A DNA stretch of 63,968 nt, counting the filler. It is 9 parts of 9 records of this genome, joined end to end, with 100 filler letters (N's around TTAATTAATTAA, not from the genome) between each part and the next. Parts side by side here need not be neighbours in the genome. Positions count along the whole stretch, not along the records: positions 14,381 to 22,193 come from SRR31156797_16355; 8 more parts are not named here. One strand, 5' to 3'. Under the pieces are notes generated by a model, which worked only from the letters and a program-made list of their open reading frames with translations, searched no databases and had not been told where the DNA came from. Of this stretch, positions 7,487-22,293 are shown piece by piece. The position numbers were made by a program, and so were the translations under genes. Each line of letters starts with the position of its first letter. Within the stretch, counting starts at the first letter, position 1.

Positions 7487-7586
7487 NNNNNNNNNNNNNN
7501 NNNNNNNNNNNNNNNNNNNNNNNNNNNNNNTTAATTAATTAANNNNNNNNNNNNNNNNNNNNNNNNNNNNNNNNNNNNNNNNNNNN
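7487..7586. other. Artificial contig spacer
   Basis: N-run + TTAATTAATTAA + N-run, 100 nt. Confidence 0.99.
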
Positions 7587-14280: not shown

Positions 14281-14380
14281 NNNNNNNNNNNNNNNNNNNN
14301 NNNNNNNNNNNNNNNNNNNNNNNNTTAATTAATTAANNNNNNNNNNNNNNNNNNNNNNNNNNNNNNNNNNNNNNNNNNNN
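14281..14380. other. Artificial contig spacer
   Basis: N-run + TTAATTAATTAA + N-run. Confidence 0.99.
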
Positions 14381-14766
14381 AAGATTGCTCTAACACTTGG
14401 TTTTTTTAGAGCAATTGTTCTATGGTCTAATTGCGTTTCTAATTTAGCGTTAATTTTTCTTTTATTTATGTCAAATGGTAATGTGTCATATTTTGCATCT
14501 CCAAGTATTTTGATTTCCTCTACTTGAACCTCTACGCCACCTGGTGCTTTTGGATTAGCTTCTCTTTTACCAACAGCCTCAACTGACATCTCTACTCTAA
14601 GTGTATCAGCCTGTTCTTTAGTACAAACTAACTGCATAACTCCTGTTTTATCTTTAAGAATAACAAAGTTAACCTGTCCAAGGCTGTTAATTTTATGTAC
14701 CCATCCACATACCTTTAATGTTTCCTCTTCTGATTTAAATACGTCTTTTACAAATGTTCTTTGCAT
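14381..14766 (-). CDS. aspS: Non-discriminating (archaeal/clostridial-type) aspartate--tRNA(Asn) ligase, N-terminal part
   Basis: OB-fold GWVHKINSLGQVNFVILKDKTG, NPKAPGGVEV, LDHRTIALKKPSVRAI; RBS GGAGGG; Asn specifier upstream. Confidence 0.82.
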
Positions 14767-14781
14767 GATCTTTCCCTCCTG

Positions 14782-14837
14782 AAGTGTTTTTCTAAAGTTG
14801 GAATGTTTTAATCCAACTTTGGTTTAGAAAAATACTT
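14782..14837 (-). repeat. Long inverted repeat directly 5' of the aspS RBS
   Basis: AAGTGTTTTTCTAAA-GTTGGA...TCCAAC-TTTGG-TTTAGAAAAATACTT (plus strand). Confidence 0.8.
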
Positions 14838-14975
14838 AATAATCTTTTAATATTAATTTTTTATCATCCTTTATAAAATATAAGGATAGTATTTTTACAA
14901 TTAAGAATAAACTGTAACTAGTCAGTTTATATCGGGGGTATCTGCAATTATTTATTTAATTTAAAAAATTACAAT

Positions 14976-15022
14976 AAAAAAATGCTCCCCACAATATCCA
15001 TTACAATATACGTGAAGAGCAT
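14976..15022 (-). terminator. Leader terminator of the aspS T-box
   Basis: Minus strand ATGCTCTTCAC...GTGGGGAGCAT followed by a U-tract. Confidence 0.8.
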
Positions 15023-15272
15023 AGTATTTTTAATTTTAATTAATATACTACTTAATAAGTTTGCTCGCTTCACTAAGTACGGAGTTTTACTCGATACTCG
15101 CCAACTGTAACGTATTGGTAACGTCTAAATCTACTAACTCTCAACTTGCCAGGTTGATAGCTTTTGGTTAGAAGCTCGGAAGGTGTTCTTCAATATAAGC
15201 GTCGTTGTCGGACTTTCACCATAACCGACTCGCTCTAAACTACTTCTTATATCTACTCTCCTCGTCATTGCC
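14976..15272 (-). ncRNA. T-box riboswitch leader with Asn (AAC) specifier; no canonical UGGNACC antiterminator bulge
   Basis: Stem I (about 15174-15272) has a GA/K-turn, AGUA/GAA S-turn, AG bulge, GGUGAAA loop and specifier loop GAAGAACA; Stem II has AGUA; IIA/B pseudoknot CGT-taCCAAt-ACG-ttacag-TTGG. Confidence 0.85.
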
Positions 15273-15360
15273 TTTTAAGCTACTAGAATTATATAATTCC
15301 AGTATTATATTCAATTGTTTTTAAGAGGTTTTATCTTTCTCGTCCTCTTTAGATAGGAAA

Positions 15361-15389
15361 AGTATACTATTTTTCTGGACAAGTGTCAA
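15361..15389 (-). promoter_or_regulatory. Sigma70 promoter for the T-box/aspS transcript
   Basis: TTGACA-N17-TATACT on the minus strand. Confidence 0.85.
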
Positions 15390-15627
15390 GAAATTTTTCC
15401 CCGTATATTTTCAATAAAATTTAATAATTTATTAAAGAAAACATATCAAATATAACTTGAGAATTAGTATTAAACAAATAACTCACTAATATTTAACATT
15501 AGTTTGCTAAAATAATTAAAAATAACACTTTAGCTTAGTATTAGATATACTATTTATTAATTATCTCATGTTGACTTTTTAATTAATAATGTTGTAAATT
15601 ATATATATAAAGGCAGTTGAAAGTAAG

Positions 15628-16416
15628 GTGACTCAAATGAAATTTATACATAGACTATTAATTTTTTTTCTGGTACTAATCTCAAGTGTAAAAGTAACTT
15701 TTTCAACAGAAACAATTAGTGCAATAGGTCACCATGACTATGCACCGTGGAATTGGGAACATAATGGAAAGTATATCGGTGCAGCAGTAGAAGTATCAGA
15801 AGTTTTATTTAAAAGACTTGGCATCGAAGTTGATGCAACTTTTATCGGTCCATGGAAAAGAGGACAAGAGTATATAAGAAGAGGTCATGCCGATCTGGTT
15901 GTTTGCGGTTTCATAAACGAAGACAGAAAAAGCTATTCCGAATTTATTATGACTCCTATGGGATTTATTGAGCAAGCTATCTTTGTAAAAAAAGGAAAAG
16001 AGTTTGAATTCAATTCATGGAAAGATTTGAGAAGTAAAAAAATTGGACTTGCTCTCGGAGTTAGTATCGGGCAAGAATTTGATACATTTCTTAAGAAAAA
16101 TACCATTGTAGAAAGAAGAAGAAATTATGAAATTCTTTTTAATATGTTAAATCACGAGAGAATCGACGCAGTTGCAATCGGTAGATATTCTGGAAGAGCT
16201 ATTCTTGAAACACTCAACTTACAGAACGATATTGTTGATTTAAATAAACCAATTTTAACTGGAAATCTATACATATTCATGTCAAAAAAATCTAAGTATC
16301 TACACACTCTCCCTAAAATAGAAAAATTCATTCAAGAAGATGGATATTATGAATGGGTTGAGGAATTATTAAATAAATACACTAAAATTTATGCGGAAAC
16401 TTCTGCTAAAAAATAA
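15628..16416 (+). CDS. Family-3-type extracellular solute-binding protein (orphan)
   Basis: Signal peptide, DYAPW, GPWKRG...GHADL, SWKDLRSKKIG, RIDAV. Confidence 0.8.
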   Translation: MTQMKFIHRLLIFFLVLISSVKVTFSTETISAIGHHDYAPWNWEHNGKYIGAAVEVSEVLFKRLGIEVDATFIGPWKRGQEYIRRGHADLVVCGFINEDRKSYSEFIMTPMGFIEQAIFVKKGKEFEFNSWKDLRSKKIGLALGVSIGQEFDTFLKKNTIVERRRNYEILFNMLNHERIDAVAIGRYSGRAILETLNLQNDIVDLNKPILTGNLYIFMSKKSKYLHTLPKIEKFIQEDGYYEWVEELLNKYTKIYAETSAKK

Positions 16417-16431
16417 TATTAAGGAGATTTT

Positions 16432-17520
16432 ATGAAAAAACTTAGTATTCTTTCACTTATACTTATCTACTCGGTATTTTCATACTCGCAAACAAAAATT
16501 ACATTTATTAATCCGGGAAAAAGCAGTGAGGAGTTTTGGATAAATGTATCAAATTTTATGCGTGCTGCTGCTGAAGATTTGGATCTAAACTTAGAAATAA
16601 TTTATGCTGAGCGAAGTAGTGAAAATGTTGAAATAATAACAGATAGTTTAATTAGAAGAAAAATCAAACCTGATTATCTTATAATTGTTAATGAAAATTT
16701 AGAGGCTCCGGAAATTATTGAGATAAGTGATCTGAATAAAATCAATACTTTTTTGATCTACAATGATTTAAATAGTGAACAAAAAGAAGAGTTACTTGAG
16801 CCAAGAGTAATATACGATACGTGGCTGGGAACTTTAACCCCGGATAACTTCGAAGCTGGTTATTTACTCGCCGATTATTTAATAAAAAATACTGTTAAAG
16901 AAAAAGAAAAGCTAAATATGATTGCAATTTCTGCTAATCAAATTACTCCCTCTTCCATCGAGAGACTTGAAGGCTTGAAACTGGCAGTCTTTGAGAATAA
17001 TAATATAGAACTTTTAGAAACTATTTATGCAAATTGGGATGAAAAACAAGCATATGAACTAACTAAAAATATGCTTGATAAATACAATGACATTGACATT
17101 ATTTGGTCTGTCAACGATCCTGCTGCACAAGGAGCTATTAGAGCTATAAAAGAATACGGTTTAGAACCGGGAAAAGATATAATTATCGGTGGAATTAACT
17201 GGGATTTCTCAACACTTGATAGAATTAAAAATGACGAAATGTTATGCTCTGTTGGTGGTCATTTTATGATAGGAGCTTGGACTCTTGTTATGTTAAAAGA
17301 TCTTTCTGAAGGGATTGACTTTGTTGATGAAACTAAAATAACTGAACTAAAAATAAATATTTTTGAAACAATAGACAGAGAAAACGTTGAAACATATTTA
17401 TCTTATTTCCCTAATTCTAATTGGAATAAAATTAATTTTAGAAACTTCTCAAAATTCTACAATACAAATATTGAAAACTATAACTTTAACTATGATAAAA
17501 TCGTAGAAAATATAGAATAA
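16432..17520 (+). CDS. Periplasmic binding protein type 1 (sugar-binding-like; orphan)
   Basis: FINPGKSSEEFW...FMRAAAEDL, PDNFEAGY, IIWSVND, GGINW, SVGGHF. Confidence 0.82.
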   Translation: MKKLSILSLILIYSVFSYSQTKITFINPGKSSEEFWINVSNFMRAAAEDLDLNLEIIYAERSSENVEIITDSLIRRKIKPDYLIIVNENLEAPEIIEISDLNKINTFLIYNDLNSEQKEELLEPRVIYDTWLGTLTPDNFEAGYLLADYLIKNTVKEKEKLNMIAISANQITPSSIERLEGLKLAVFENNNIELLETIYANWDEKQAYELTKNMLDKYNDIDIIWSVNDPAAQGAIRAIKEYGLEPGKDIIIGGINWDFSTLDRIKNDEMLCSVGGHFMIGAWTLVMLKDLSEGIDFVDETKITELKINIFETIDRENVETYLSYFPNSNWNKINFRNFSKFYNTNIENYNFNYDKIVENIE

Positions 17521-17542
17521 ACAGTATTTTTAAAGTAATCAT

Positions 17543-17586
17543 AAAAAACTCCATTATCAAAATTTAAATGATAATGGAGTTTTTTT
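17543..17586. terminator. Bidirectional terminator between convergent genes
   Basis: AAAAAACTCCATTATCA...TGATAATGGAGTTTTTTT. Confidence 0.85.
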
Positions 17587-17587
17587 A

Positions 17588-18235
17588 TTACTCTATTTTT
17601 TCTTTAAGTAAATAATTATAAATTCCAGCTGCTCCTAAAGCTCCAAGTATAGGTGCAGCTATATATAACCACAAATGTTGAAAGTTCATCATTGCTACTG
17701 CAGGCCCTATTGATCTGGCAGGGTTCATTGAAGCTCCTGTTACCAGATCTCCAAACATAGCTTCAACAGCAATTGTAAATCCTATCGCTATTCCCGCTAA
17801 TATTCCCTTCTCTTTTGACCCAGTTGATACTCCTAAAATTACTAACATAAGAAACAGTGTTAAAAGAAATTCAAATACAAAAGCCTGTGAAACTCCAAAT
17901 GAAGGTCCTGTCATACCAAGTCCTTTACTTGCAGGAAATAAAAATTTAACTGTAAAGCTTCCTGTAATCGCTCCCGTTATTTGAGCAATTATATAGGGAA
18001 AAATTTCTTTTTTATTAAGTTTACCTAAAGATGCAAATGCTAGGGTCACCGCCGGATTAAAGTGGGCTCCGCTTATATCTCCAAATGCATAAATCAAAGC
18101 TGTTATTACAAAGCCAAATGTTAAAGCTATTTCAACTGTTCCGAATTTTCCCGTTAGTTCCCTTACAACAATTACTCCTGTTCCCATTAATACTAAAAAA
18201 AACGCACCTAAAAATTCACTTATATATTTTCTCAT
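17588..18235 (-). CDS. MIP-family aquaporin (NIP-like)
   Basis: SGAHFNPAVT and GASMNPARS NPA motifs; RBS AGGAGG before ATG 18235. Confidence 0.93.
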   Translation of the reverse strand: MRKYISEFLGAFFLVLMGTGVIVVRELTGKFGTVEIALTFGFVITALIYAFGDISGAHFNPAVTLAFASLGKLNKKEIFPYIIAQITGAITGSFTVKFLFPASKGLGMTGPSFGVSQAFVFEFLLTLFLMLVILGVSTGSKEKGILAGIAIGFTIAVEAMFGDLVTGASMNPARSIGPAVAMMNFQHLWLYIAAPILGALGAAGIYNYLLKEKIE

Positions 18236-18487
18236 ATTACTCCTCCTAATTTTATTTTCATAAATATCATGCAAAATTTGCAAAAAAATTATGAATCTAA
18301 ACTTAAATATTTATTATATTTTAATTATACTAATATTATTTGTGTGATACTTGTAGTATTCTGATAATACTTGTAAATTTTTATTGACTTTTACATTTAT
18401 TTATATGATAATATAGTTTGATTTTCAAAGTACAGAGGTTTTATTCTAAATAACTTAAAATAAAGAGAAAAATAAATGAGGTGTGTT

Positions 18488-19060
18488 ATGGAACTAAATA
18501 AAATTGACTTTCATGAGTTCATAGAAAGTTTAACGGAAATATTGGACGTAAAAGATACATATACAAGAGGTCACTCTACCAGAGTGGCAGATTTTGCTTC
18601 GGAAATAGGAAAAGAGATGAAATTAATTCCAGAAGAGCTAGAAGAGTTACATATAACCGGACATCTTCATGATCTGGGAAAAGTTGGAATTTCGGATTTA
18701 ATTCTTCAAAAGGAAGGAAAACTTACTAATGAAGAGTATGAAAGAATAAAAGAGCATAGTGTTTTGGGGTATAATATATTAGTCAAGGTTACTCATCTTA
18801 AAAAGCTGGCTAAATACGTAAGACACCATCATGAAAGATGGGATGGAAAAGGTTATCCTGATAAATTAAAAGGAAAGGAAATTCCATTTCAATCAAGAAT
18901 AATTAGTGTAGCGGATGCGTATGATGCTATGACATCCAAAAGATCATATAGAAATAGTATGTCAAAAGAATATGCTATAAGTGAGTTAATAAAAAATAAG
19001 TGGACACAGTTTGACGGTGATGTTGTTGATGTATTTATTAAAATATTAAATTCTGATTAA
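18488..19060 (+). CDS. Stand-alone HD-GYP domain protein (cyclic dinucleotide phosphodiesterase)
   Basis: YTRGHSTRV, LHDLGK, HHHERWDGKGYP, VADAYDAMTSKRSYR. Confidence 0.93.
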   Translation: MELNKIDFHEFIESLTEILDVKDTYTRGHSTRVADFASEIGKEMKLIPEELEELHITGHLHDLGKVGISDLILQKEGKLTNEEYERIKEHSVLGYNILVKVTHLKKLAKYVRHHHERWDGKGYPDKLKGKEIPFQSRIISVADAYDAMTSKRSYRNSMSKEYAISELIKNKWTQFDGDVVDVFIKILNSD

Positions 19061-19083
19061 TTTTATAATTTAAGGAGGATGAT

Positions 19084-20487
19084 ATGAAAAAGATAATGAT
19101 TTCAATATTCCTAATCGTTTCAGTAATCACTTCAGCCAAATTTGCGAGAGAAACAGGTTATGGATATGATGAAAAAGAAGCAAAGAAGGAAGCACTTTCA
19201 TTTCTAACCCAAAGTATCGCAGTTGATGTAAAAAGTAGTTTTCAGAAAAAAATTACCCAATCTGAAAAAGAGACAGATATTGAAAAAGAAAATATAATTA
19301 ATGTTAAATCTAATCTTCCTATGTTAGGTGTAATCTTTACTTCGTTTAAAATAGACAATGAATTTATGATTGACGCTGAACTAAACGAAGGATCTATTCC
19401 ACTATATGAAGCTGAAATGAATAGAATAAGCAAAGAGATAGAAGGGTTAGAAAAAGTAGCATTTTCTGATGCTGAAAAACATGAAAGAATAAGATCACTT
19501 GAATTATTACTTACAAGAGCAGAGGAGTATAATAAATATTATTTAGTTTTATCATTTCTAAAGGATGATAAAACTATTGAGTATATTTTCTATAACAGTA
19601 GTAAATACGAGCTTGACCTACGTAAACTAAAAAAAATATACGACTCTATTGATTTAGCTGTTGCGGATAATTTTACTGATTTGGAAGAAGAAGATATATA
19701 TGTTTATCCCATAACAGAGGAAAATTCAAGTGAAATCACTGAATTTGCAGGAGTACTGAAGGGAAAAGTTGAAGCTGAAATTTACTCCAGCTCATCGCCG
19801 GAGTATGCTAACTATATAATGAGAGGTCAGTATACAGTTCTGGATCAAGGAATTGCAGTTAATTATAAAATATATAATTTGTCAGGGAAGACAATAAAAT
19901 CATTTTTTATTATGTTGGAACCTGAAGCATATAGTGGACTTAAATACAAGTCAACAACAGCTGATTTTGATAAACTGTTAAAAAGCGGTGTTGTTGTTTC
20001 AAGTGATTTTAAAGTTGATATAAACAGTTCAAGAGGAAAAATCGATCTGTTATTTGAAGAGGGAGAATTATTTAATATTGTAGTTAAAGTTAATAAACCT
20101 TCATATTTTTATATCATTGGACATACTTTAAAAGATGATGAGAAGTACTCATATTTAATTGATTTTAACGAAGCTTATGGTGATAGAAAATTTGTTACAT
20201 TTATTAGCGCTGATGATACTAATAAATGGATTGATCTTGGTGAATTCGAAGCAATCGCTCCTTTCGGAGTTGAAACTCTACAGGTTTTTGCTTCAACTAA
20301 AGATTTAGTGGACTCAGTTCCCAGAAATTACTATGATAATTACACCGGTTTATATAAACTAGGTAATGCTCCAAAGGAGAATCTAAAAATGGCGAGAGCT
20401 ATTATTCGAAAACGTAAAAAAACAAAAGAGATTACAGAATCATTTTTAATTTTTACAACTATGGAAAAAATCGATTCTGAAAATTAA
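19084..20487 (+). CDS. Exported protein with LPP20-like N-terminus and DUF4384-like C-terminus
   Basis: Signal peptide; EAKKEALSFLTQSIAVDVKS; VKVNKPSYFY...APFGVETLQVFAS. Confidence 0.55.
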   Translation: MKKIMISIFLIVSVITSAKFARETGYGYDEKEAKKEALSFLTQSIAVDVKSSFQKKITQSEKETDIEKENIINVKSNLPMLGVIFTSFKIDNEFMIDAELNEGSIPLYEAEMNRISKEIEGLEKVAFSDAEKHERIRSLELLLTRAEEYNKYYLVLSFLKDDKTIEYIFYNSSKYELDLRKLKKIYDSIDLAVADNFTDLEEEDIYVYPITEENSSEITEFAGVLKGKVEAEIYSSSSPEYANYIMRGQYTVLDQGIAVNYKIYNLSGKTIKSFFIMLEPEAYSGLKYKSTTADFDKLLKSGVVVSSDFKVDINSSRGKIDLLFEEGELFNIVVKVNKPSYFYIIGHTLKDDEKYSYLIDFNEAYGDRKFVTFISADDTNKWIDLGEFEAIAPFGVETLQVFASTKDLVDSVPRNYYDNYTGLYKLGNAPKENLKMARAIIRKRKKTKEITESFLIFTTMEKIDSEN

Positions 20488-20669
20488 AATTATATTAGAA
20501 GATTCTAAGAAATACTCTTTAATTTAAGCTTTTCTTTAATTTATTTTTAAGTCAAGAGAGGTATACTTATCTTGTAAATGAAAATACTTAATTAAGTTTG
20601 AGACCTTTTCATTTTTCATCATAAACCTCCTTTTTAAAGTAATTTAAAAAGTAAACTATCATCCTAACG

Positions 20670-20699
20670 AAAAAAGAGCGAATGAACCCGCTCTTTTTT
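20670..20699. terminator. Bidirectional terminator downstream of queH
   Basis: AAAAAAGAGCG-AATGAACC-CGCTCTTTTTT. Confidence 0.8.
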
Positions 20700-20721
20700 A
20701 CTTTATTTTTTGATTTTAATT

Positions 20722-21378
20722 TTACTTCATTTCTGCTTTTCTTCTATCCGATTCAGCTTTTGAAAATGAGCAACCACAATAATCTTGTCTGTATAAACCA
20801 TGTTCAATACTTAATTCCACTGATTTTTTATAGCCGTTTTTCTTTTTAAAATCACTTCTAAGCCATTTAATACCATATTTTTCTTCCAACTCAAAACCGA
20901 TTTCATTAAGTTTGTTAGAATTTTTAAGCGGACTAATCGTTAAACTAGTTGTAAAATATTCAAATCCTCGTTCTTTAGCTAGCTGAGCACTTTTTTCAAG
21001 TCTTAGGTAATAACACTCAAAACATCTCTCTCCACCTTCAGAGGCAGTTTCTAAGCCTCTTATTTTATCTAAGAAATCACTTGTATTAAATTCACCTTCT
21101 ATAAACTTTATTTCTGTTCCACTCTCAAGCTGATCTATTAGTTTTAGCTGTTCCTCTTTCCTAATCTCATACTCTCCCGGAATATTAATATTAGGATTAT
21201 AAAAATAAACTGTTATCTCAAAATAATTACTCAAATACTCTAATACATAACTGCTACACGGAGCACAGCAGCTGTGAAGTAGTAGCTTCGGTTTTTCACC
21301 TTTAAATGATTTAATTTCTTGCTCCATCTCTGCCTGATAATTTTTTTTCACCTGATTTTTATTACTCATTTTATTCAT
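20722..21378 (-). CDS. queH: Epoxyqueuosine reductase QueH
   Basis: LLLHSCCAPCS, FYNPNI, RCFECY, YRQDYCGCSFS. Confidence 0.92.
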   Translation of the reverse strand: MNKMSNKNQVKKNYQAEMEQEIKSFKGEKPKLLLHSCCAPCSSYVLEYLSNYFEITVYFYNPNINIPGEYEIRKEEQLKLIDQLESGTEIKFIEGEFNTSDFLDKIRGLETASEGGERCFECYYLRLEKSAQLAKERGFEYFTTSLTISPLKNSNKLNEIGFELEEKYGIKWLRSDFKKKNGYKKSVELSIEHGLYRQDYCGCSFSKAESDRRKAEMK

Positions 21379-21474
21379 CCTTTATAAATTATAATTTTTT
21401 TATTTTTTACTAATTTTAAAATAACAACGGCAAATTGAAAGCTATTTTCAAGCTTATCAATCTGCCGTATAATT

Positions 21475-22062
21475 TTAAAATCCGTTTTCACTTAAAGTTT
21501 TATTCCATTCAATAACTTTATCTTCATATTCCGCTAAAAGCCAAGAAACATCTCCGTTTATTTCGATATATTCAATAATATCTCCCTCTTCAATATCCTC
21601 TACTACTTTTGCATCATCTTTACTAACTATCTCTCCAAATACTGTATGTTTTTTATTTAAATTTTCAGCTGGATTCATTGTTATAAAGAACTGACTTCCA
21701 TTTGTTCCGGGTCCTGAATTTGCCATTGCTAACATACCGCTTTGGAAGAAATCTAACCAATCCGAATATTCATCCTTGAAACTATACCCCGGTCCTCCTG
21801 TTCCGTCTCCTTTTGGATCTCCACCTTGAATAACAAAATCTTCAACAACTCTATGGAAACTTAAGTTATTATAAAATCCTCTTTGTGCTAAATTAACAAA
21901 GTTAGCAACTGTTAGTGGTGCTCCGTCAGGATAAAGGAAAACATTTATTTCACCTTTATTAGTTTTTATAGACGCTCTTATATCATTTTTATTCGCTTTC
22001 TTGCTCGTATTCGAACAACCCATCATAACTATTAGCAACAACAGTAATAGTATTTTTTTCAT
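21475..22062 (-). CDS. Cyclophilin-type peptidyl-prolyl isomerase, lipoprotein
   Basis: Lipobox [36 protein letters not shown]. Confidence 0.95.
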
Positions 22063-22193
22063 ATTTGTATATCCTCCTGTTAAATTATTACTTGCATTTT
22101 TACGAAGTTCATTACAATTATACTATAAACAGAAGAAAAATTGAAGTTTGCTTTTAAATATTGTTTAGTATATAATGAATATGGCGATAATTA

Positions 22194-22293
22194 NNNNNNN
22201 NNNNNNNNNNNNNNNNNNNNNNNNNNNNNNNNNNNNNTTAATTAATTAANNNNNNNNNNNNNNNNNNNNNNNNNNNNNNNNNNNNNNNNNNNN
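22194..22293. other. Artificial contig spacer
   Basis: N-run + TTAATTAATTAA + N-run. Confidence 0.99.

What the first reader, a model, noticed from the sequence alone, without database searches (positions are those of the whole stretch)
14976..15272. Asn T-box riboswitch with no T-box: the UGGN bulge is absent and an alternative helix competes with the terminator
Seen: a strong TTGACA-N17-TATACT promoter, a canonical Stem I (K-turn, S-turn, AG and GGUG T-loops, AAC specifier), Stem II and the IIA/B pseudoknot. There is no TGGNACC between the pseudoknot and the aspS start. Instead GTGAAG-CG-AGCA (15073-15062) can pair with TGCT-CTTCAC (15021-15012), the 5' arm of the terminator, extended by TAGTAT/ATACTA. 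This gives a terminator-competing structure with a 2-nt bulge. Established: canonical T-boxes read aminoacylation only through UGGN pairing with the tRNA NCCA end. Inference: this may be a variant switch that senses tRNA(Asn) abundance or another 3'-end state, such as Asp-tRNA(Asn), the product of the regulated enzyme. It could also be a leader locked by bulge loss while the tRNA-binding half stays intact.
Basis: partly seen in the sequence, partly recalled or inferred. Interest (0 to 1): 0.8.

Follow-up and report, generated by a model that had tools for sequence, protein, structure and literature searches.

The report
T-box leader without a T-box
This is a tRNA-sensing leader RNA in front of an asparagine-pathway gene that keeps its tRNA-binding half but lacks the short motif thought essential for reading whether the tRNA is charged, and about thirty relatives in one bacterial phylum share that loss.

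Summary
On the minus strand (15277-14976), Rfam T-box matches at 65.7 bits (cut-off 93). The match covers only Stem I, Stem II, the IIA/B pseudoknot and a linker hairpin. No TGGNACC lies anywhere between the promoter and the ND-aspS start. GTGAAG-CG-AGCA pairs with the terminator's 5' arm.

It is neither an assembly error nor a lone decaying copy. An independent assembly matches it, and a co-occurring strain differs only by small changes there.

Four Fusobacteriota genomes carry ND-aspS leaders with the same build. All 28 sub-threshold T-box hits in 151 Fusobacteriota genomes are Asn-specifier (GAAGAAC) leaders without a T-box sequence. They sit before asnB, DUF896-asnS or ND-aspS.

Twenty-six of these leaders form one branch (99/94) nested among canonical Bacillota leaders. 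Their tRNA-binding half covaries strongly.

Best reading: a working, T-box-derived tRNA(Asn)-binding attenuator. Its antiterminator no longer pairs with the tRNA NCCA end. How tRNA binding, or charging, reaches the terminator is unknown.

This is a new variant of a known kind, and only in vitro read-through assays can settle the mechanism.

The parts
15361..15389 (-). sigma-70-like promoter, TTGACA-N17-TATACT
   Evidence: Scores 11 of 12. Relatives L163-L166 have TTGACA-N17-TACAAT or TATAAT before their leaders.
15173..15272 (-). Stem I: K-turn, specifier loop, AG bulge and GGUG distal loop
   Evidence: Rfam alignment. Pairs covary across 26 leaders.
15185..15188 (-). specifier GAAC: AAC (Asn) overlapping GAA (Glu), followed by A
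   Evidence: Read. GAAGAACAC is invariant in 26 of 26 aligned leaders.
15125..15171 (-). Stem II with AGUA S-turn and a lineage-specific apical extension (loop CUGGCAA)
   Evidence: The co-occurring strain shows C-G to U-A and G-U to A-U changes in the extension.
15101..15124 (-). Stem IIA hairpin, CGUUA (F-box) and IIB pseudoknot strand GUUGG (15105-15101) pairing with loop CCAAU
   Evidence: Pseudoknot partners change together across groups: CCAAU/GUUGG, UCGGG/UCCGA, UUGAC/GUCAA, UUGCU/AGCAA.
15077..15097 (-). linker hairpin GUAUCGAG...CUCCGUAC. Rfam treats it as an insertion.
   Evidence: Fold. Its base is nearly invariant in 26 of 26 leaders. It is also present in Bacillota relatives.
15062..15073 (-). 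5' strand of the bulge-less antiterminator, GUGAAG-CG-AGCA
15022..15050 (-). inner hairpin UAGUAU...AUACUA within the antiterminator loop
   Evidence: An inner hairpin of different sequence sits at this place in 5 of 5 ND-aspS leaders.
15012..15021 (-). shared strand UGCU-CUUCAC: 3' strand of the antiterminator and 5' arm of the terminator
14976..15022 (-). intrinsic terminator: 17-bp hairpin with one bulge, then U7 (14982-14976)
   Evidence: Folds at -17.3 to -18.9 kcal/mol. The simple scanner does not list it.
14767..14975 (-). 209-nt AT-rich spacer with three hairpins and the RBS AGGAGGG
   Evidence: Much of it (the 14777-14856 stretch and probably 14884-14971) is skipped or replaced in the co-occurring strain.
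14381..14766 (-). 5' part (128 codons) of aspartate--tRNA(Asn) ligase (ND-aspS), cut by the contig end
   Evidence: The best NCBIfam match is NF003483. The 94%-identical full-length P0001 scores 571 bits against a cut-off of 353.

Best explanation
The element is a T-box-derived transcription attenuator for the non-discriminating aspartyl-tRNA synthetase gene. In relatives that gene sits next to gatB and probably heads a transamidation operon.

It belongs to a Fusobacteriota-specific clade of Asn-specifier leaders. The clade descends from Bacillota GAAGAAC-type T-boxes and has lost the UGGNACC bulge and the original Stem III.

Shown:
- The tRNA-binding half is intact and under structural selection. 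This half comprises Stem I with the GAAC specifier, Stem II, the IIA/B pseudoknot and the linker hairpin.
- A strong intrinsic terminator follows it.
- A helix that starts 3 nt after the linker hairpin uses the terminator's 5' arm.
- The same layout recurs in all five ND-aspS leaders.

Inferred:
- RNA polymerase starts at the sigma-70-like promoter.
- The 5' half captures tRNA(Asn) by anticodon pairing with AAC and by stacking on the tRNA elbow.
- The bulge-less antiterminator forms first, because it is transcribed first.
- It survives invasion by the terminator's 3' arm only when the tRNA-bound 5' half holds it, through helical stacking on the linker hairpin. In the asnB group the stacking would be on the pseudoknot.

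The NCCA end is not read by Watson-Crick pairing. Any preference for uncharged tRNA must therefore come from something else. Candidates are an unrecognised contact, or the sequestering of charged tRNA by EF-Tu in the cell.
For: 5' half and missing T-box:
- The Rfam match stops before the antiterminator.
- There is no TGGNACC.

Not an artefact:
- Independent contigs of run X1 are identical over 14383-15001 and 15006-15119.
- A second strain differs over 15006-15085 only by six substitutions and four 1-nt indels. Every listed difference lies at 15040-15060, outside both arms.
- That strain differs at 41 of 394 coding positions. Over 15099-15245 it has only 10 substitutions and one 1-nt deletion.
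- Several of those changes keep pairs (C-G to U-A, G-U to A-U, A-U to G-U) (read).

Same build elsewhere:
- Leaders L163-L166 score 77-80 bits with the 3' model part skipped.
- In 5 of 5 ND-aspS leaders the transcript cut after the terminator's 5' arm folds so that 7-10 nt of that arm pair with the strand 2-3 nt after the linker hairpin.
- One pair changes on both sides: AGC/GCU in the window against AGU/ACU in L164-L166.
- The terminator's 3' arm varies A/G opposite the invariant CUCUUC.

Clade:
- 28 of 28 sub-threshold RF00230 hits in 151 Fusobacteriota genomes are GAAGAAC leaders before asnB, DUF896-asnS or ND-aspS.
- 24 of 30 leaders have no UGG at all between the linker hairpin and the terminator.
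- 17 of 40 predicted pairs of the 5' half show compensatory changes. The pseudoknot partners change together across groups.
- 26 leaders form one side of a branch (99/94) among 23 canonical Bacillota leaders.
- Complete leaders stand in tandem before asnB in three genomes.
- In the asnB group the terminator's 5' arm best pairs with GCGGGUA beside the pseudoknot. Between 1 and 32 of 500 shuffles reach that duplex, in 6 of 6 leaders tested.
Against: - No experiment or RNA data bears on read-through.
- Outside the window the antiterminator helix is statistically weak. Shuffles reach it in 23, 39, 50 and 150 of 1000, and in 50-79 of 500 with longer arms.
- Its covariation rests on one double change among four distinct sequences.
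- No common antiterminator was found across the clade. None was found for the six DUF896 leaders of group C (0 of 8-10 arm bases paired). Groups D and E are unclear. Because a different partner was sought in each group, over-fitting is possible.
- In the canonical mechanism the NCCA-bulge helix and the stacking of A76 are what stabilise the antiterminator (review PMC7583486, passages). No known way of coupling survives its loss.
- At four positions the window copy departs from the clade consensus where the co-occurring strain keeps it: 15201, 15180, 15165 and 15129.
- Two of the six substitutions of the strain's contig over 15006-15085 are not listed in the output. Their places are unknown.
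Confidence: 0.55

Rival explanations
1. The RNA still reads the tRNA 3' end and its charge. It would do so through a site that is not a UGGN bulge: a non-Watson-Crick pocket built from the purine run 5' of the linker hairpin, the linker hairpin with its conserved C/C mismatch, and the bulge-less helix.
For: All regulated genes serve asparagine supply: asnB, asnS and ND-aspS. Only charge sensing would report that supply. The base of the linker hairpin and the purine run before it are nearly invariant in 26 of 26 leaders. In group C the stretch UAGGG-UUUGUAU-...-UUCU is identical in 6 of 6 leaders, apart from a one-base difference in the length of the preceding U-run, while the terminator loop varies. 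It looks like a T-box whose 7-nt bulge was rewritten.
Against: No sequence complementary to GCCA is conserved. Twenty-four of 30 leaders lack any UGG in the region, and only one of the rest has UGGU. tRNA(Asn) of G103 has an ordinary G73-CCA end. The linker hairpin also occurs in canonical Bacillota leaders that keep their T-box, so it is not a replacement for it.
Confidence: 0.2
2. The element is a relic. The switch is dead and acts as a constitutive, leaky terminator, and the 5' half has not yet decayed.
For: The defining sensor is gone. The terminator is about 6 kcal/mol more stable than the competing helix. The window copy has four departures from the clade consensus. The gatB next to ND-aspS in G103 carries an in-frame TGA, which hints at decay of that operon in one genome.
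Against: The loss is shared by 30 leaders in at least 22 genomes. The specifier is invariant, with 17 covarying pairs and a pseudoknot whose partner sets change together. The leader type stands before three different asparagine operons. It also stands as tandem copies, and two constitutive terminators in tandem would shut a gene off. The leader differs less between strains than the coding region does.
Confidence: 0.15
3. An assembly or binning artefact removed the T-box sequence.
For: The window is a chain of short contigs joined by N spacers, with very different G+C contents.
Against: Logan contigs of run X1 match the window exactly across the region. A second strain has only 1-nt indels there. 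Four genomes assembled independently show the same build.
Confidence: 0.01

Closest known systems
T-box leader / T-box riboswitch (Rfam RF00230), transcriptional class
   Same: Stem I with K-turn, specifier loop and distal T-loops. Stem II with S-turn. IIA/B pseudoknot and F-box. An intrinsic terminator whose 5' arm can pair with an upstream strand. It sits before an aminoacyl-tRNA synthetase gene.
   Different: There is no 7-nt UGGNACC bulge, no Stem III directly before it and no G-U sieve pair. The score is 65.7 bits against a gathering score of 93. The competing helix is continuous, or has a non-conserved 2-nt bulge.
Two-codon T-box of the Clostridium acetobutylicum transamidation operon (Saad et al. 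2013). Known here only through a passage in PMC4052509. The original paper is not held.
   Same: Overlapping GAA/AAC codons in the specifier loop. In that system the leader controls the operon of the tRNA-dependent transamidation pathway. Here gatB lies 1.7-1.8 kb downstream of ND-aspS in G096, G102, G103 and G104. The canonical Bacillota ND-aspS leaders nearest in the tree share GAAGAAC and the linker hairpin.
   Different: Those Bacillota leaders keep GGGUGG(U/C)ACC. The window's clade does not. Binding of two tRNAs was not tested here.
The 48 TBDB entries with a predicted specifier but no canonical UGGN (PMC7778990, passage)
   Same: T-box-like leaders in which the bulge motif cannot be found.
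   Different: The paper gives only the count. No organisms or sequences were visible in the text or in the one short supplementary file held. It is unknown whether these are the same leaders.
Staphylococcal glyS T-boxes with the stem Sa insertion (PMC9177973, abstract in a search listing)
   Same: A lineage-specific hairpin inserted inside the antiterminator/terminator domain. The inner hairpin at 15050-15022 is comparable.
   Different: By that abstract they are working T-boxes for tRNA(Gly). I recall, from no call here, that they keep the T-box bulge.

Membership tests
T-box leader (RF00230) | Stem I with GA/K-turn motif, specifier loop (S-turn, codon followed by a purine), AG bulge and distal loop | tested here: met
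   Rfam alignment. Stem I pairs covary in 26 leaders.
T-box leader (RF00230) | Stem II, IIA/B pseudoknot and F-box. These are optional in the family but typical. | tested here: met
   At least four different complementary pseudoknot pair sets across the clade.
T-box leader (RF00230) | T-box sequence: a 7-nt bulge whose UGGN pairs with the tRNA NCCA end | tested here: not met
   No TGGNACC and no unpaired UGG between the pseudoknot and the terminator.
T-box leader (RF00230) | Mutually exclusive antiterminator and terminator that share one strand | tested here: met
   Folds. Shuffle tests. This is met in form only; function is untested.
T-box leader (RF00230) | Discriminator: purine string RRRxG - Stem III - AA flanking the antiterminator (PMC7583486) | tested here: inconclusive
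   A purine run (GGCGAG) precedes the linker hairpin, but UUA follows it, not AA. The hairpin that fills this role in Bacillota relatives (GAGUG-hairpin-AA-UUAGGG) is absent.
T-box leader (RF00230) | Rfam gathering score | tested here: not met
   65.7 bits against 93. Relatives score 52-80 bits.
T-box leader (RF00230) | Read-through induced by uncharged cognate tRNA | not testable with these tools
   Needs transcription assays.
Two-codon (Asn/Glu) T-box of transamidation operons | Overlapping GAA and AAC in the specifier loop | tested here: met
   GAAGAACACC at 15191-15182. Invariant in the clade.
Two-codon (Asn/Glu) T-box of transamidation operons | Controls ND-aspS with gatCAB | tested here: inconclusive
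   The window's contig ends inside ND-aspS. In four relatives gatB lies just downstream.

The most novel reading that the evidence does not exclude
A whole clade of natural T-box riboswitches works without the T-box. In Fusobacteriota an asparagine regulon (ND-aspS-gatCAB, asnB, asnS) would be switched by tRNA(Asn) through leaders that no longer pair with the NCCA end. The charge state would then be read by a new RNA pocket, or indirectly, for example because EF-Tu hides charged tRNA. That would show the UGGN-NCCA helix is dispensable for tRNA-controlled antitermination.
Probability: 0.35. Interest if true: 0.85.

Novelty: new variant of a known kind. Interest (0 to 1): 0.75.

Why it matters
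The pairing of the T-box bulge with the tRNA NCCA end, and the stacking of A76 on helix A1, are described as the core of charge sensing and switching in every studied T-box (PMC7583486 and PMC7778990, passages).

A conserved clade that keeps the tRNA-binding platform but has dropped that core would mean one of two things. Either there is a second way for an mRNA to couple tRNA binding to termination, or there is a natural series of intermediates showing how a riboswitch is rewired after transfer into a new phylum.

There is also a practical point. These leaders fall below Rfam's threshold, so standard annotation misses an asparagine regulon in Fusobacteriota.

Tried and rejected
Acceptor-site ideas rejected:
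- UGGC at 15103-15100 as a displaced acceptor site. It is the pseudoknot's 3' strand and changes with its partner: L163 has CCGA and other groups GUCAA or AGCAA.
- The Stem II apical loop CUGGCAA (15152-15146) as an acceptor site. The extension and the loop are absent or different in relatives.
- UGG in the terminator loop (AAUGGAUA). It lies downstream of the shared strand and is absent from L164-L166.
- Pairing of the last 4-12 nt of G103 tRNA(Asn) with the 3' domain of L166. It finds only the pseudoknot strand.

Searches for closer relatives:
- The 128-aa fragment found only one 34% hit in genome contigs and one in metagenome contigs.
- The 94% relative P0001 exists only in a collection whose contigs could not be fetched.

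Runs and contigs:
- Runs X3 and X4 gave only short, unlike pieces and are not used.
- X2 covers 15068-15325 with two differences and stops short of the antiterminator.

Other dead ends:
- A first tree with two outgroups did not resolve the clade. It was repeated with 23.
- Two tRNA(Asn) motif patterns found nothing. The tRNA was found through RF00005 and ARAGORN.

Literature: seven full-text searches found no description of Fusobacteriota T-boxes or of T-boxes lacking the bulge, beyond the TBDB count. An early survey lists 0 T-boxes in 2 Fusobacteria/Thermotogae genomes (PMC2494555, table passage).

Full report
**What the window is.** The 63,968-base window is a chain of contigs joined by pairs of 44-N spacers. 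G+C ranges from 27% to 56%. The finding lies on the contig 14381-22193 (about 30% G+C). No whole genome is held for it.

**The leader.** All elements are on the minus strand.
- A sigma-70-like promoter, TTGACA-N17-TATACT, lies at 15389-15361 and scores 11 of 12.
- Rfam finds nothing in the window at gathering thresholds.
- With E-value thresholds RF00230 (T-box) matches 15277-15074 at 65.7 bits (E 8e-14, gathering score 93).
- The alignment covers the K-turn, the specifier loop, the AG bulge and GGUG distal loop, Stem II with AGUA, and the IIA hairpin with CGUUA. It skips the model's Stem III, T-box and antiterminator.
- The specifier loop reads GAAGAACACC: AAC at 15187-15185, overlapping GAA.
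- No TGGNACC lies between 15400 and 14760.
- A hairpin GUAUCGAG...CUCCGUAC follows the pseudoknot at 15097-15077. Rfam treats it as an insertion, and I call it the linker hairpin.
- Three bases later comes GUGAAG-CG-AGCA (15073-15062), which pairs with UGCU-CUUCAC (15021-15012).
- That strand is also the 5' arm of a 17-bp terminator hairpin followed by U7 (15022-14976).
- The transcript cut before the terminator's 3' arm folds into the competing helix at -12.8 kcal/mol. The terminator alone folds at -18.9.

**The competing helix against chance.** The duplex of -11.9 kcal/mol is reached by 18 of 2000 shuffles and by 3 of 1000. With longer strands, 18 of 500 shuffles reach it.

**The gene.** The gene starts at 14766 and is cut by the contig end after 128 codons. 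Its best family is aspartate--tRNA(Asn) ligase. P0001, which is 94% identical and full length, passes that family's cut-off.

**Not an artefact.**
- Contigs assembled independently from run X1 are identical to the window over 14383-15001 and 15006-15119.
- A second, less abundant strain in the same run differs at 41 of 394 coding positions. Over 15099-15245 it has 10 substitutions and one 1-nt deletion.
- Over 15006-15085 it has six substitutions and four 1-nt indels. Every listed one lies at 15040-15060, in the loop and bulge and not in the arms. Two substitutions are not listed in the output.
- Read against the sequence, several changes in the 5' half keep pairs: C-G to U-A and G-U to A-U in the Stem II extension, A-U to G-U in Stem I, and a deletion that turns a G-U into a G-C.
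- Much of the 209-nt spacer after the terminator is skipped or replaced in that strain.

**Orthologues in Bacillota are canonical.**
- Of 18 ND-aspS loci scanned, 17 have a T-box hit, 14 of them above the gathering score.
- Of 160 loci, 139 have TGGNACC upstream. Most of the rest are from other phyla and show no convincing Stem I.
- The nearest leaders by sequence share GAAGAAC and the linker hairpin. They then have GAGUG, a small hairpin, AA, and UUAGGGUGG(U/C)ACC.
- By position and likeness, the window's GUGAAG strand matches that purine run rather than the T-box itself. This is my reading.

**Orthologues in Fusobacteriota are like the window.**
- Six of 190 genomes of the phylum of G001 encode a relative of P0001. 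The record title of G001 names a Fusobacteriaceae MAG.
- Four of them (L163-L166, 72-73% identical proteins) have leaders of 77-80 bits with the 3' model part skipped.
- In each, the leader is the only T-box hit in the genome.
- The protein of L163 is identical to one that NCBI names Hypnocyclicus thermotrophus.
- All four have the linker hairpin, then 2-3 bases, then a purine strand: GUGAAAAGG in L163 and GAAGAGU in L164-L166.
- That strand is complementary to the terminator's 5' arm (CUCUUCAC or ACUCUUC). An inner hairpin sits in between.
- The CG bulge is not conserved.
- One pair differs on both sides (AGC/GCU against AGU/ACU).
- The terminator's 3' arm varies between A and G opposite the invariant CUCUUC. 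That is what one expects of a strand that must pair two ways.
- Taken singly, these helices are weak against shuffles: 23, 39, 50 and 150 of 1000.

**A clade.**
- A scan of 151 Fusobacteriota genomes gives 24 with a T-box hit. Three are above the cut-off: a serS-like and two trpE-like leaders with GGGUGGCAAC or GGGUGGCAUA.
- The other 21 genomes give 28 hits of 52-80 bits.
- I read all 28. Every one has the GAAGAAC specifier and the linker hairpin and lacks a T-box sequence.
- They precede asnB, a small DUF896 gene followed by asnS, or ND-aspS.
- With L164 and the window that makes 30 leaders. Twenty-four have no UGG at all between the linker hairpin and the terminator. The other six have UGGA, UGGG, or in one case UGGU.
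- tRNA(Asn) of G103 is ordinary: GUU anticodon, G73, CCA encoded.
- In an alignment of 26 leaders, 17 of 40 predicted pairs show compensatory changes and GAAGAACAC is invariant.
- The pseudoknot appears in at least four complementary versions.
- In a tree with 23 canonical Bacillota leaders, the 26 form one side of a branch with 99/94 support. They are nested among the canonical ones, and the window and L163 branch at the base. The root is midpoint only, over 195 columns.
- This fits one transfer with ND-aspS, one loss of the bulge, and later recruitment of copies to asnB and asnS.
- Complete leaders stand in tandem before asnB in three genomes.
- The ND-aspS genomes also have asnS, and a second gatB 1.7-1.8 kb downstream of ND-aspS.

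**What competes with the terminator elsewhere.**
- In the asnB group with GC-rich terminators, the 5' arm (UACCCGC) best pairs with GCGGGUA. That strand is the purine run beside the pseudoknot. Between 1 and 32 of 500 shuffles reach the duplex, in 6 of 6 leaders tested; two further members of this group, L177 and L181, did not match the script's search pattern and were not tested.
- For the six DUF896 leaders of group C nothing was found. UAGGG-UUUGUAU-...-UUCU there looks like a T-box with a rewritten bulge.
- Groups D and E are unclear.
- Because I looked for a partner group by group, these pairings need independent testing.

**Mechanism.** Two things are shown: an intact, selected tRNA-binding platform, and a terminator with a competing helix. 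The rest is inferred, namely that tRNA(Asn) binding holds the competing helix through stacking on the linker hairpin or the pseudoknot. Reviews describe the NCCA-bulge helix, the stacking of A76 on helix A1 and a G-U sieve as the sensor and the switch (PMC7583486 and PMC7778990, passages). None of these can exist here. The element therefore either reads charge in a new way, reads only occupancy, or is inert. The conservation, the regulon and the tandem copies argue against inert.

**Prior knowledge.** TBDB reports 48 sequences with a specifier but no canonical UGGN, without detail. A 2008 survey lists no T-box in Fusobacteria/Thermotogae. Seven searches found no description of this clade. The two-codon Asn/Glu T-box of C. 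acetobutylicum is known to me here only through a review passage. Supplements that I could not see, or the TBDB website, may already list some of these leaders.

Noticed in passing
window 7487-7586, 14281-14380, 22194-22293 and five more sites: The window is a chain of contigs joined by two 44-N runs with 12 letters between them. G+C jumps between about 27-30% and 50-56%, so it mixes at least two organisms or is a poorly binned assembly.
   Followed up: partly
window 14767-14975 (-): The 209-nt spacer between the terminator and the RBS holds three AT-rich hairpins, for example AAAGUUGGA...UCCAACUUU at about 14795-14826. In the co-occurring strain 80 bases here are replaced by 18 others and 88 more are skipped.
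   Followed up: partly
L002, L003, L026, L037, L049, L090: Bacillota ND-aspS leaders carry a second T-box sequence plus terminator downstream of the first, without a second full Stem I. These are tandem expression platforms.
   Followed up: no
L191, L192, L193 (G098, G101, G100): Two complete bulge-less Asn leaders stand in tandem before asnB. A third stands before DUF896-asnS within 2.3 kb.
   Followed up: partly
L174, L175, L176: The three Fusobacteriota T-box hits above Rfam's cut-off (serS-like and trpE-like genes) have GGGUGGCAAC or GGGUGGCAUA, not UGGNACC. UGGN is kept but the ACC part is not.
   Followed up: no
L193 2848-3060 and relatives L178-L185, L189: A 65-70-aa DUF896-like ORF lies between the leader and asnS. 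Its role is unknown.
   Followed up: no
G103:C6:3083-3935: The gatB copy next to ND-aspS in G103 is read with one in-frame TGA and appears as two pieces. It may be broken.
   Followed up: no
window 15146-15152 (-): The apical loop of the extended Stem II is CUGGCAA, which contains UGGC complementary to GCCA. Relatives lack the extension, so I take it as chance.
   Followed up: yes
window 14994-15001 (-); L163; L195; L196: An AUGGAUA(U) motif at the tip of a small AU hairpin recurs. It sits in the terminator loop in the window and L163, and just before the terminator in two asnB leaders.
   Followed up: no
window 19084-20487 (+): A 467-aa protein of no assigned family has full-length relatives (42-43% identity) in only 2 of 190 Fusobacteriota genomes, each read with one internal stop.
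   Followed up: no
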